Program-made: the position numbers
Assembly: GCA_040326155.1 (NCBI GenBank)
Contig: JBEQLE010000070.1
Location: 1-23,375, forward strand
Reading direction: 5' to 3'
Origin: Leptospirales bacterium
Lineage (GTDB): Bacteria > Spirochaetota > Leptospiria > Turneriellales > JAOUFE01
DNA: 23,375 nt
In this document: positions 9,001 to 12,000 of the stretch, piece by piece
How positions within the stretch are numbered: position 1 is the first letter of the stretch
Layout of the letters: every line of letters starts with the position of its first letter

Positions 9001-12000
9001 TTTGCTTTTGTCTCTGTGCTTTGTGTTGTTCGTCTTGCCAATTCGTTTTGGTGAAATTTTTCGGACCCTTCGTTTCTGCGACTTTCGACGTCGGATGAGG
9101 TTACGCTGCTTATGATTTCTGAAGTTTCGCTTGTTGAAGTTTTATGAACCTCAATTTTCATTGTAATAGGGGCTGCTATGCTGGTTTCGACACTCGGGTA
9201 TTCGGCAACCCAGAAATTACTGACTGTTTCCTTCGTGTTGATAATGCCGTCTCCGTCAAAGTCTTCAGAAAGAGTTGTGCCAACCGGATCTACAATTCCA
9301 AAAGAACCGATCTTGGCCCATGTTCCAAGGTCTAAACTAAACAGGTCATGCGTCTCGATCGGTTGATCGCCCGTGAGGGGAAGTTGTGTGCCATCACTAG
9401 AGTCTTCAACGATTTCGGCTTTGAGCTCAGTGGGTTCAACGTTTGCCGTTATTGTGCAGTTAACGTAAGTTAAAGGTAAAATCAGAAGAGCGATAAAGTA
9501 TATCCGAAATCCTGTTTGTTTTTTGAAAAGTGTATATATTCCATTTGTTCTTGTATTAATTGCGACCGAAAAATCCATAGTTCTCCTCCAAGAGAAGTAT
9601 TAATAATACTTTTAGAAAAGAATGGGATCCAGATCTTACGTATGCATGCGGCTAACGGTACGCACTTGATCAGTGTGAATTTATTCAACGCGAAATCTCA
9701 ACATAATTCCCTGTTACTTTTCTATTTTTTTTTACCGAACACACAACGCCGTTATAGATAACCGAAAGTGACATATAACAACTATTGGCATTACTCAGGA
9801 TGGAACAGGCTATTATAAAAACCCTGAGTCAATAATAAAAATAAATAAATCAAAAAAAATCAAAATTAATGGAAACCATATAAGTTATATCTAATTTAGT
9901 GTATAATAATTCTACAGAATGTAAACTAAAACAATAGTAAAGGTCTCGAATTCAAAAGGCTGTATAAGATATTAGCAAAATGAAATGGGTATATTTAATA
10001 TTTCCCATGTGGTCATTTTGCCTGTAGGCGATACCGGTGATGACAATAGCGCCAATTTTTTGCGCACTCTTCGTGTTGGAGGTTGAATAAACCGTGTGGC
10101 GTAATCGGGCTATCGCCCGTAAGGTAACCAGGCAAATCTTTACTTTCCTCTTATGTGTAGTAACCAGAGTGGTAACTACAACGTTTGACTTGCCTATACA
10201 GTTGATAAAAAGAAACCCCGAAAAGTAGTGCGGTCGAATACCGCAGAAGGGACAAAGAAATGATAGTACCTTTACTTACAGAAACTACTCGGATGCTGGT
10301 CGGCCAATTTTATTTTAGTTGTTGTCTAAAAGGCTATCGCTCCTATGGATGGGTATATATTACGGAAATTCCATAACAGAAACTTTCACATAGGCTGTAG
10401 AAACATGGAATTCCAGTCAATTCCATTCAGTCGCTATATAACAAGAAACGCCCACAAAAGCGGGCGTTTCTTAAGTCCGATGCTAGTTTACCGGGCTGGT
10501 TAATTGTCTATAACTTTACGCAAGACTCGAATAGCCGGTAATTCGAAAGTACCACCGGCCGGATCATAGTCACAAACTCCTGCGTCGGTCTGGTCATACA
10601 CGCATCCGTTAGAAACGTAAAAATAATCACTCGCTCCTTTGGTTATGTTTGACGAGGAGAAAAACTGAAATCCGAAACAGTATCCGCCAAGGGCAAATCC
10701 GTCAGAAGTATTGGCACAAGAGCCATCAACTCGCCCTGTTTCTGTGAAGTGGGTATAGGCGGTCGGGTCGGTCGCCGAGTAAAGTCTGGCTCCGTCTACA
10801 ATATTGTCGAATCCGATAAACAACTTACCTGCAGATACTTGCAACAACGAGATAGACCTGTTTTCCACAATCTCAATTCCCGTATCTGCACCCTGGGTGG
10901 TCGATGTCAGGATTCTACTCCAATTAGCAGGCAGATGGCAGTTTGCTGAACATACCCAAAGTTCCCCGCCGTTTTGCGTTGTTCCCGTTGCGCTGGCTGT
11001 TGTTACATTTCTTGCCATGTATAGTTTACTATTATACTCAACCATAAATGGAATACCCTTCATGCCCGGAGTAATATCGTTTTTCGAGGACAAGTAGAGA
11101 GTCCTGTTCGAACCCTGGCACCAGTTGGTTGGCACGCTCGCGCATGCAGCTATTGGGCCGCTATGTGGTGCTTCCTGGACAACAAGTGAAAAACTACCCG
11201 GGCCTGAGGGTAATTCGCTGGCAGCAGTGTGAGAGACAATATTACCTGTATTGTCTGTCGTATCATCCAGTGTGGAGTAAACAACACCTCCTGAATTACC
11301 CAGATACATTTTCCCGTTAAAAACAATCATTGAATCTATACCTAAAATAGAGCCGGTAACAACATCACCATTATCAAAGCCACCAAAAGCGGGGATACCT
11401 TTCATCCCGGTCCAGTTATCCCCTGCTTTTGTCTCGGCAATGCAAGTCCCCGAACTTATATTGAATTTTTCAAATCCGGGTCTTTTAGCGGCACCTGTGC
11501 CGTCAATCGCCAACCCTACATAAATGTGTTCTCCATAGGAGTAAATTGTTTCGGCGCTTTTTGTACCGGCAGAACTTGTAATACCGCATGGTTCAAAGTT
11601 CAAGGTCGAATCCTGGTCACTAGTCCACCATATTTCATTTAGCTGGGTTCCTGATACCCTTTCAACCGGACCTACAAACAGAAATTGCTTATCGATATTG
11701 GCCTGTACGGTTCTATCGTCACCGGTTTCAAATAAATTTCCAGATGCAAAATAACCTATTCCATCGACGCCATTTGGGCCATTATCCGTAGTTATTTCAT
11801 CTCCAAATGTGTAGCATATACCTGTGGGATTGGCCCCGGTTATTGTACAGTAGCCTGCCGCAGTTTGAAAAACAACAGCAGTTCCATTTGCGCCGTCTGC
11901 TTCAAATCTAAAAGCTCCGGTATTCAGGTCATTGGGACCAAGGTATACTTTATTGTTATACACAAATGCGAAACTGAATGAGGTACCATCCGCAAATGGG

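What the first reader, a model, noticed from the sequence alone, without database searches (positions are those of the whole stretch)
10361..10424. Two copies of a ~65-bp hairpin + TGGAATTCCA palindrome element in the long leaders of the giant secreted-protein genes
Copy B (16501..16566) contains a perfect 12-bp inverted repeat with a 10-nt loop and, 13 nt later, the perfect palindrome TGGAATTCCA. Copy A (10361..10424) shares TACGGAAATTCCATAA-AGAAA and the identically spaced ATGGAATTCCAGT, but its hairpin half is degenerate.

Each copy lies just after the end of one gene, and several hundred nucleotides upstream of the next giant minus-strand gene. That is ~390 nt before the Ig-like gene and ~780 nt before the paralog operon.

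Two spaced palindromes are typical of dimeric transcription-factor operators. Alternatively this could be a conserved 5'-UTR RNA structure or a miniature repeat element. I found no other copies in the window.
Basis: seen in the sequence. Interest (0 to 1): 0.6.

Follow-up and report, generated by a model that had tools for sequence, protein, structure and literature searches.

The report
Paired short DNA boxes after genes
The two ~60-bp elements are real, but what is conserved is a pair of short DNA boxes (ACTGGAATTCCAT… and TTATGGAATTTCCGTA), not the hairpin, and they look more like a lineage-specific dispersed protein-recognition repeat near gene ends than a control element dedicated to the giant lipoprotein genes.

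Summary
Copies A (10361-10417) and B (16503-16558) align over 57 nt, far above shuffles, and B has the perfect 12-bp inverted repeat. The interpretation needs revision.

- **What is conserved:** all 11 A/B differences fall outside the two boxes, M2 (ACTGGAATTCCAT + RTTTYYAC) and M1 (TTTCTRTTATGGAATTTCCGTA) (P~1e-4). The hairpin arm is not conserved, and no RNA fold is shared.
- **Extra copies:** the two box words are the most repeated 12/13-mers of the contig. Exact copies also lie inside coding sequence (2257, 6718, 2665, 18694).
- **A relative:** in a genome whose SPFH protein is 88% identical, the orthologous intergenic region keeps only ACTGGAATTCCATATTTCCACAA (22/23) in unalignable flanks. 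That region has a second copy abutting a convergent gene and lacks M1. No giant gene follows either copy.
- **Enrichment:** ATGGAATTYC occurs at 0.34-0.35 per kb in both genomes, against 0.012 per kb in 245 kb of other Leptospirales DNA.
- **Promoter:** a good sigma-70-like promoter between the boxes exists only in B.

Best reading (about 0.42): a lineage-specific dispersed DNA-recognition box that occurs here as REPIN/BIME-like doublets near gene ends. Main rival (about 0.3): operators of a transcription factor. The rest of the genome was unreachable, so copy number is untested.

The parts
10397..10417 (-). Copy A, box M2: ACTGGAATTCCATGTTTCTAC. It contains the palindrome TGGAATTCCA at 10406-10415.
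   Evidence: The first 13 nt are identical to B, to the L061 boxes and to two coding sites.
10361..10382 (-). Copy A, box M1 with its conserved 5' extension: TTTCTGTTATGGAATTTCCGTA.
   Evidence: It matches B at 21 of 22 positions.
10419..10426 (-). An extra ATGGAATT word one base upstream of A's M2 box.
16536..16558 (-). Copy B, box M2: ACTGGAATTCCATATTTTCACAA. It is orthologous to L061 3347-3369 (22 of 23 identical).
16503..16524 (-). Copy B, box M1 with extension: TTTCTATTATGGAATTTCCGTA.
16501..16534 (.). B-only perfect hairpin: arms 16501-16512 and 16523-16534, extendable to 14 bp as RNA. One arm is M1 and the other is an extra partial box. It is not conserved in A or in L061.
16515..16542 (-). 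Sigma-70-like promoter match between the boxes of B: TTCACA, 16 nt, TATTAT (10 of 12). The equivalent in A is only TCTACA, 17 nt, TGTTAT, and there is none in L061.
2257..2269 (-). Exact ACTGGAATTCCAT inside LIC12048 paralogue 1 (codons N-W-N-S-I).
6718..6730 (-). Exact ACTGGAATTCCAT inside LIC12048 paralogue 2 (codons D-W-N-S-I). It is one of the two second-longest exact runs (15 nt) between the paralogues.
2665..2676 (-). Exact TTATGGAATTTC inside LIC12048 paralogue 1 (codons D-Y-G-I-S).
18690..18709 (-). TCTGTTATGGAATTTCAGTA inside the 3' end of the membrane-protein gene (codons V-M-E-F-Q-Y), about 210 nt upstream of the SPFH start. The orthologous site in L061 (1166-1180) reads TATGGAATTCCAGTA.
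10224..10256 (-). A second repeated block, about 105 nt downstream of copy A: TTTGTCCCTTCTGCGGTATTCGACCGCACTACT, a hairpin followed by a T-rich tail. It is 28/33 identical to L061 3431-3463, which is a non-orthologous place.
16468..16487 (-). Degenerate counterpart of that hairpin block, just downstream of copy B: TTGGCGGTTTCTACCTGCCG followed by TGGGTTCTTT.
10443..10472 (.). Bidirectional-looking intrinsic terminator of the Ig-like gene. It lies between that gene's stop codon and copy A, so copy A is outside that gene's transcript.

Best explanation
The '65-bp element' is a doublet of a lineage-specific short DNA word.

**Anatomy**
- The core is ATGGAATTYC. The fuller forms are box M2 (ACTGGAATTCCAT + RTTTYYAC) and box M1 (TTTCTRTTATGGAATTTCCGTA).
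- In this contig the two boxes are inverted copies of one 15-mer.
- The gap between them keeps its length (27-28 bp, box centres 42-43 bp apart) but not its sequence.

**Shown**
- The boxes, and not the hairpin or the spacer, are what is kept.
- The boxes recur singly, in pairs and inside genes.
- They are strongly over-represented in this organism and one close relative, and in no other Leptospirales DNA examined.
- Whole boxes sit in long intergenic regions close to gene ends.

**Inferred**
- The boxes work as double-stranded DNA recognition sites for a trans-acting protein.
- They belong to a dispersed intergenic repeat family of the REP/REPIN/BIME kind: inverted doublets with fixed spacing, and singlets elsewhere.
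- Any effect on the neighbouring giant lipoprotein genes, such as the promoter-like hexamers in copy B, is secondary.

The recognising protein is unknown. It could be a RAYT-like transposase, a nucleoid or structural protein, or something else.
For: 1. All 11 A/B differences lie outside the 29 box positions (P = 1.2e-4). The spacer length differs by only 1 nt.
2. M1 and M2 are 13/15 identical as inverted copies.
3. ACTGGAATTCCAT and TTATGGAATTTC are the most repeated 13- and 12-mers of the contig, with 4 exact copies each. There are 7 sites within 2 mismatches of the 15-mer, against 0.23 expected.
4. In the relative L061 (SPFH protein 88% identical), the orthologous intergenic region keeps ACTGGAATTCCATATTTCCACAA (22/23) in otherwise unalignable flanks. 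A second copy follows a terminator and abuts the stop codon of a convergent gene. There is no M1 and no hairpin.
5. ATGGAATTYC density is 0.34/kb in the window and 0.35/kb in L061, against 0.012/kb in 245 kb of other Leptospirales DNA.
6. All three long intergenic regions seen (two in the window, one in L061) carry boxes. None of the short ones, including divergent promoter regions, does.
7. A second repeated block (hairpin plus T-run) is shared by non-orthologous intergenic regions of the two genomes at 28/33. These regions are therefore mosaics of repeats.
8. Background: Leptospirales are reported as the most MITE-rich order (PMC11602168). L. interrogans has an abundant intergenic repeat with the same architecture, two GGAAYTCC-core boxes about 46 bp apart, with 36 copies in 190 kb.
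Against: - Only 23 kb of this genome and 8.5 kb of one relative could be read, so genome-wide copy number, the defining property of a dispersed repeat, is untested.
- Neither box alone can form a REP-like stem-loop, because the palindrome is only 10 bp with no loop.
- No RAYT or transposase gene is in view.
- REPs are extragenic, yet exact words occur in coding sequence more often than codon usage predicts (4 against 0.58).
- Locus-specific conservation of the box with diverged flanks is also what a host regulatory site would show.
- No sequence homology to the L. interrogans repeat was found.
Confidence: 0.42

Rival explanations
1. The boxes are operators of a transcription factor. Two protein dimers would bind M2 and M1 on the same face of the helix, about four turns apart. 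They would bracket the -35 and overlap the -10 and start site of a promoter that drives a long leader and the giant lipoprotein genes. They might also control the SPFH operon through the 18690 site.
For: - The boxes are invariant while the spacer varies.
- Box centres are 42-43 bp apart.
- In B the best sigma-70-like match of the 8-kb region scanned (9400-17500) lies exactly between the boxes, with TATTAT overlapping M1.
- M2 is the only conserved island in the orthologous intergenic region of the relative.
- The 18690 site and its L061 orthologue lie about 110 nt upstream of the conserved TTGACA of the SPFH promoter.
Against: - The promoter match is good only in B. A has TGTTAT, lacking the key A at position 2 of the -10, and neither L061 box has a match.
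- L061 box 2 abuts a convergent gene and has nothing downstream to regulate.
- In both leaders the element sits at the extreme far end from the gene it would control.
- The core half-sites GGAA and TTCC abut in M2 but are 1 bp apart in M1, which is awkward for one dimer.
- Seven sites share a perfect 13-mer, which is unusually exact for a regulon.
- No regulator gene is in the window.
- Distant LIC12048-family loci lack the motif.
Confidence: 0.3
2. The word ATGGAATTYC / ACTGGAATTCCAT is a genome-wide signal read by DNA-processing machinery, for example a DNA-uptake sequence like the Neisseria DUS or the Haemophilus USS. Inverted pairs would accumulate after genes, and single copies would be tolerated in permissive codons.
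For: - The words are exact 12-13-mers rather than degenerate sites.
- Density is similar, about 0.35/kb, in two related genomes, about 28-fold above other Leptospirales DNA, and zero in the 72% relative.
- Copies occur in coding sequence above the synonymous-codon expectation.
- Inverted pairs lie close behind stop codons.
Against: - Natural transformation is not established in Leptospirales (my own knowledge).
- The density rests on 31 kb.
- Three of the four coding copies sit on conserved peptide motifs (D-W-N, M-E-F-Q-Y), which explain much of the match.
- L061 has no site in its 4.8 kb of non-syntenic DNA.
Confidence: 0.09
3. The element acts in RNA. Either it is a 5'-UTR or 3'-UTR structure, or it is the start of a small RNA that ends at the conserved hairpin and T-run block downstream of each copy.
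For: - B folds into a 14-bp hairpin (-25.6 kcal/mol, z = -7.0).
- M2 and M1 could pair with each other (12/13) in both copies.
- Each copy is followed by a terminator-like hairpin block that is shared with L061.
- L061 has a strong terminator closing the region.
Against: - The hairpin arm is not conserved in A (z = -1.6) and is absent from L061.
- No covariation is possible, because the paired boxes are identical in A and B.
- The consensus fold of the hairpin block is weak (-1.2 kcal/mol).
- Single boxes cannot fold.
- The distance from box to terminator varies from 71 to 171 nt, with no sequence similarity between them.
- Rfam gives nothing at its thresholds.
Confidence: 0.07
4. The element is a classical MITE: the 57-bp unit is one mobile element with 15-bp terminal inverted repeats and a TA target duplication.
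For: - Similarity starts and stops exactly at the outer ends of the inverted boxes.
- B is flanked by TA on both sides.
- Leptospirales are MITE-rich.
Against: - The orthologous site in L061 is neither empty nor full. It carries only the M2 half plus 10 nt.
- Internal sequence has diverged while the ends are perfect, which is not the pattern of recent transposition.
- A is flanked by TA on one side and TC on the other.
- At 57 bp it is at the lower limit for MITEs.
- There are no matches in viral, genome or metagenome scans.
Confidence: 0.05

Closest known systems
REP / REPIN / BIME elements (repetitive extragenic palindromes and their inverted doublets, mobilised by RAYT transposases in Proteobacteria)
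   Same: - Short boxes of about 15-23 bp lie in intergenic DNA close to gene ends.
- They occur as inverted doublets whose spacer keeps its length but not its sequence, with singlets elsewhere.
- The consensus is lineage-specific.
   Different: - The boxes are AT-rich and carry only a 10-bp palindrome with no loop, so a single box cannot form the REP stem-loop.
- No RAYT gene was seen.
- Copy number is unknown.
- Exact words also occur in coding sequence.
The L. interrogans intergenic composite repeat (motif TGT[AG]G[GT]A[AG][TC]T[CA]C[CT]ACA of Zhukova et al. 2017, PMC5243855). Consensus here: ATGTGGGAACTATTACAAATCACGATTTTACAGATAAATTTTAAAAATGTAGGAACTCATACTT
   Same: - It comes from the same order of bacteria.
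- Two near-palindromic boxes with a GGAAYTCC-type core lie about 46 bp apart, against 42-43 bp here.
- It is intergenic, with no fixed distance to transcription starts.
- Its function is unknown.
   Different: - There is no detectable sequence homology. A 36-copy HMM gives E > 2 on the window and on L061.
- Its spacer is partly conserved.
- High copy number is demonstrated there (36 in 190 kb) but not here.
Paired operators bracketing a promoter (the general bacterial repressor layout)
   Same: - Two similar boxes of about 15 bp lie four helical turns apart.
- One abuts the -35 and the other overlaps the -10 and start site, in copy B.
   Different: - The promoter is not conserved in A or in the relative.
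- One box copy faces a convergent gene.
- Half-site spacing differs between the two boxes.
- No regulator was identified.
DNA uptake sequences (Neisseria DUS, Pasteurellaceae USS)
   Same: - An exact 10-13-nt word occurs at about 0.3 per kb.
- It is found in coding and non-coding DNA, with inverted pairs behind genes.
- It is shared only by close relatives.
   Different: - Competence is unknown in this order.
- The pairs do not form the terminators.
- The sample is far too small.

Membership tests
REP/REPIN | Each unit is an imperfect palindrome able to form a stable stem-loop | tested here: not met
   The boxes hold only TGGAATTCCA, with no loop. The stable hairpin exists in B alone (z = -7.0) and not in A (z = -1.6) or L061.
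REP/REPIN | Extragenic, typically near 3' ends of genes | tested here: met
   All four whole boxes or doublets lie 0-76 nt from a stop codon in long intergenic regions. Only the short core words occur in coding sequence.
REP/REPIN | Inverted doublets with conserved spacing and a variable spacer sequence | tested here: met
   M1 and M2 are 13/15 identical as inverted copies. Gaps are 28 nt (A) and 27 nt (B), and all substitutions fall in the spacer. L061 has singlets only.
REP/REPIN | Tens to hundreds of copies per genome | not testable with these tools
   Only one 23-kb contig of the MAG is readable. The genome and metagenome scans did not contain it.
REP/REPIN | A cognate RAYT (IS200/IS605-like) gene in the genome | not testable with these tools
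   There is none among the 9 window genes. The rest of the genome is unavailable.
MITE | Terminal inverted repeats with similarity ending at their outer edges | tested here: met
MITE | Target-site duplication | tested here: inconclusive
   B is flanked by TA...TA and A by TA...TC.
MITE | Orthologous sites are either empty or carry the whole element | tested here: not met
   L061 carries only the M2 half at the orthologous place.
L. interrogans intergenic composite repeat | Sequence similarity to the family profile | tested here: not met
   nhmmer with a 2-copy and a 36-copy HMM: best window hits have E = 2.4-7 and lie elsewhere. The elements themselves are not hit.
Transcription-factor operator pair | Fixed position relative to a promoter in all copies | tested here: not met
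   A sigma-70-like match is found in B only (10/12). There is none in A or at the L061 boxes by the same scan. Leptospira promoters are reported to deviate from the E. coli model (PMC5243855), so the test is weak.
Transcription-factor operator pair | Purifying selection on the site relative to its flanks | tested here: met
Transcription-factor operator pair | An identified cognate regulator | not testable with these tools
   No DNA-binding protein is encoded in the window.
Conserved cis-regulatory RNA structure | A shared fold supported by covariation | tested here: not met
   Rfam gives nothing at gathering or E <= 1 in the window elements.
RAGATH-36 RNA (RF03104) | Score at or above the Rfam gathering threshold (70 bits) | tested here: not met
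   26.6 bits on L061 3354-3461, minus strand, only. There is no hit in window regions A or B.
DNA uptake sequence | Genome-wide density of about 1 per kb, with competence machinery present | not testable with these tools
   Local density is 0.34-0.35 per kb in 31 kb. The genome is not available.

The most novel reading that the evidence does not exclude
The exact word ACTGGAATTCCAT / ATGGAATTYC is a genome-wide self-recognition signal of an uncultured Leptospirales lineage. It would act as a DNA-uptake-type sequence or another polar or processing signal. The 'elements' would then simply be the inverted pairs that such signals form behind genes.
Probability: 0.09. Interest if true: 0.75.

Novelty: new member of a known kind. 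Interest (0 to 1): 0.36.

Why it matters
If the boxes are a dispersed repeat, they extend to an uncultured Leptospirales lineage the pattern seen in Leptospira interrogans: intergenic DNA filled with paired GGAA-YTCC-type boxes of unknown function. They also give a compact, well-delimited motif for asking what protein reads such boxes. If they are operators instead, they would define a small regulon linking giant surface lipoproteins of the LIC12048 family, which are vaccine-candidate outer-membrane proteins in pathogenic Leptospira, with an SPFH membrane-stress operon. Either way the practical gain is modest until the whole assembly is scanned.

Tried and rejected
**Collection scans**
- Genome contigs, pattern TGGAATTCCAN{26,38}TGGAATTTCC: 49 single hits in unrelated taxa, none in Leptospirales. 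These are chance matches, and the source MAG is not in that collection.
- Metagenome contigs, with a tighter pattern: 7 hits. None shows similarity to the element beyond the pattern itself, so I read them as chance matches.
- Viral contigs, for both boxes: 0 hits.

**Looking for the source genome and relatives**
- Exact-protein look-ups of window proteins and of the MAG's paralogues were not on record.
- Distant LIC12048 loci (L050-L052, L065) and the 72% SPFH relative (L063) have no box.
- The Ig-like protein has no close orthologue anywhere.

**Alternative identities for the boxes**
- I compared the boxes by eye with the sigma-54, ECF sigma, DnaA-box, parS, Rex, CRP, CodY and ArgR consensus sequences recalled from memory. 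No convincing match emerged. None of this is a tool result.
- A small ORF starting in M1 (ATG GAA TTT CCG...) is 4 codons long in A and 37 in B, so it is not conserved.
- Homology to the L. interrogans repeat is rejected by HMM.
- RAGATH-36 scores well below threshold and appears at one locus only.
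Full report
**Setting.** The window is a complete 23,375-bp contig of an NCBI MAG labelled 'Leptospirales bacterium'.
- Nearly all genes lie on the minus strand:
  - two tandem LIC12048-family lipoprotein paralogues, 711-5138 and 5154-9578, about 54% identical over the aligned positions (52% by BLASTP);
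  - a 1870-aa Big_5 Ig-like lipoprotein, 10500-16112;
  - a 266-aa charged protein, 16584-17384;
  - an SPFH-SHOCT protein, 17395-18480;
  - a membrane protein, 18611-20329;
  - an F5/8-type-C protein.
- VanW lies on the plus strand, and Hsp20 is again on the minus strand.
- Copy A lies in the 921-nt gap between the Ig-like gene and the LIC12048 pair.
- Copy B lies in the 471-nt gap between the 266-aa gene and the Ig-like gene.

- The two intergenic regions share one local alignment of 57 nt, and nothing else in them aligns. Its score is 60, against 24.0 +/- 2.6 (maximum 41) in shuffles.
- The spacing differs by one base between the copies.
- The copies are not the only occurrences of their constituent words.

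**What is conserved.** Read on the gene-sense (minus) strand the element is:

ACTGGAATTCCAT-RTTTYYAC - about 12 variable nt - TTTCTRTTATGGAATTTCCGTA

- All 11 differences between A and B fall outside the 13-nt M2 core and the 16-nt M1 core (P = 1.2e-4).
- M1 and M2 are inverted copies of one 15-mer, TATGGAATTYCMGTA (13/15).
- The 12-bp hairpin of copy B pairs M1 with an extra partial box. That arm has decayed in A while M1 stayed perfect.
- As RNA, B folds at z = -7.0 but A only at z = -1.6, with different shapes.
- Rfam finds nothing for either copy.
- The conserved objects are therefore DNA boxes, not a fold.

**The boxes are a recurring word.**
- An unbiased k-mer count shows that ACTGGAATTCCAT and TTATGGAATTTC are the most repeated 13- and 12-mers of the contig. 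Each has four exact copies, all on the gene-sense strand.
- The four extra copies are in coding sequence:
  - 2257 and 6718 in the two LIC12048 paralogues, on the family-wide D-W-N motif;
  - 2665 in paralogue 1;
  - 18694 near the 3' end of the membrane-protein gene, on M-E-F-Q-Y.
- Protein constraint explains part of this. Even so, shuffling synonymous codons gives 0.58 such words against 4 observed (0 of 500 shuffles).

**A close relative.**
- The SPFH protein has an 88%-identical homologue on a metagenomic contig, L061 (identical to L062).
- Synteny holds for membrane gene - SPFH - 251-aa gene. After that comes a 408-nt intergenic region and a convergent GGDEF gene. There is no Ig-like or LIC12048 gene.
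- In that intergenic region the only island of identity with the window is ACTGGAATTCCATATTTCCACAA, 42 nt after the stop codon (22/23 to copy B). The flanks are unalignable.
- A second copy, ACTGGAATTCCATATTTCCAC, follows a strong intrinsic terminator and touches the GGDEF stop codon.
- M1 and the hairpin are absent.
- The M-E-F-Q-Y site reads TATGGAATTCCAGTA there.
- Three conclusions follow:
  - the unit kept by evolution is the 21-23-bp box;
  - the 57-bp doublet is not one mobile unit;
  - the box does not need a giant gene downstream.

**Lineage specificity.**
- ATGGAATTYC occurs at 0.34 per kb in the window and 0.35 per kb in L061.
- It occurs only 3 times in 245 kb of other Leptospirales DNA. 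That DNA comprises the 72% relative, four distant LIC12048 loci and 190 kb of L. interrogans.
- Scans of genome, metagenome and viral collections for the composite or for single boxes found only chance matches or nothing.

**Promoter test.**
- In copy B the best sigma-70-like match of the 8-kb region scanned (9400-17500) lies between the boxes: TTCACA, 16 nt, TATTAT, with the -10 overlapping M1.
- The equivalent hexamers in A are TCTACA and TGTTAT. They fail the scan, and neither L061 box has a match.
- Leptospira promoters are said to deviate from the E. coli model (PMC5243855), so this test is weak. Still, the promoter is not a conserved part of the element.

**Position.**
- Whole boxes are always in long intergenic regions and within 0-76 nt of a stop codon.
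- Short intergenic regions, including divergent promoter regions, have none.
- In both window leaders the element sits at the end farthest from the gene it was proposed to control.
- A second repeated block, TTTGTCC..CTGCGGWATTCKACCGCACTACT (a hairpin plus T-rich tail), is shared at 28/33 by leader A and the non-orthologous L061 region. It has a degenerate form in leader B.
- These regions therefore look like mosaics of small repeats.

**Comparison with what is known.**
- Leptospirales are reported as the most MITE-rich order (PMC11602168).
- L. interrogans carries an abundant intergenic repeat noted by Zhukova et al. (PMC5243855):
  - I found 36 copies in 190 kb;
  - it consists of two GGAAYTCC-core boxes about 46 bp apart;
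  - the architecture is strikingly like ours, but HMM searches show no sequence homology, so it is an analogue, not a demonstrated relative.
- The REPIN model fits the anatomy: inverted REP doublets with fixed spacing and a free spacer. It fails on the stem-loop criterion, and copy number and RAYT could not be tested.

**Verdict.**
- The element is a doublet of a lineage-specific DNA recognition box.
- I favour a dispersed REP/REPIN/BIME-like repeat (0.42) over transcription-factor operators bracketing a promoter (0.30).
- Smaller weights go to a genome-wide uptake-type word (0.09), an RNA element (0.07) and a classical MITE (0.05).
- The decisive datum, the distribution of the boxes over the rest of this MAG, is a trivial computation on the assembly that holds MES0491388.1. 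It could not be run with the tools left.

Noticed in passing
window 10224-10256 (-), L061 3431-3463 (+), window 16468-16487 (-): A second small repeat, TTTGTCC..CTGCGG[A/T]ATTC[T/G]ACCGCACTACT (5-bp stem, 7-nt loop, T-rich tail), is shared at 28/33 by non-orthologous intergenic regions of two genomes. On the opposite strand, the L061 stretch 3354-3461, which contains this copy, gives a sub-threshold Rfam match to RAGATH-36 (26.6 bits against a threshold of 70; E = 0.0008 in a 221-nt search).
   Followed up: partly
window 16355-16438 (-) and L061 3386-3452, 3581-3599: Leader B and the L061 intergenic region share further islands: ATA[A/G]TATCGTATTGGGTGA (18/19) and a 67-nt block at 70% identity. 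In L061 they lie between box 1 and a strong terminator with no gene downstream. This could be a long 3' UTR or a small RNA of the SPFH/251-aa operon.
   Followed up: partly
window 16498-16537 and 16567-16606: A 40-nt direct repeat (29/40 identical, 69 nt apart). The second copy overlaps the last codons and the stop codon of the 266-aa gene. It suggests a local duplication around the hairpin of copy B.
   Followed up: no
window 711-9578; L050, L051, L052: The LIC12048-family lipoproteins come as tandem paralogues here and in L050. In L051 the family member is followed by a 2562-aa SpvB/TcdB/RHS (Tc-toxin-like) gene. In L052 it is preceded by an ECF-type sigma factor gene. Accession numbers suggest that the same MAG holds several more paralogues on other contigs.
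   Followed up: partly
window 16584-17384 (-); L061 2550-3305: A 266-aa protein with a signal-peptide-like N-terminus, a long K/D/R/H-rich low-complexity stretch and a conserved C-terminal domain with no Pfam match. It directly follows the SPFH-SHOCT gene in both genomes.
   Followed up: no
window 18481-18610 (-); L061 1257-1420: The region upstream of the SPFH gene keeps GTTGACATTCG (a perfect TTGACA) in both genomes. This gives a probable promoter that can serve as a local reference for what promoters look like in this lineage.
   Followed up: no
window 18611-20329 and 20293-21858 (-): The ORF of the membrane protein (TTG start) overlaps the end of the F5/8-type-C protein ORF by 37 nt. The real start is probably further downstream.
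   Followed up: no
L060, L066-L068 (L. interrogans NZ_CP020413.2): A 64-nt composite intergenic repeat has 36 copies in 190 kb of the small replicon. Its halves TGTGGGAACT and TGTAGGAACTC are the best conserved parts. I found no functional study of it in the searchable literature.
   Followed up: partly
window 1-647 (-): A further gene runs off the left end of the contig, downstream of the LIC12048 pair. It was not examined.
   Followed up: no
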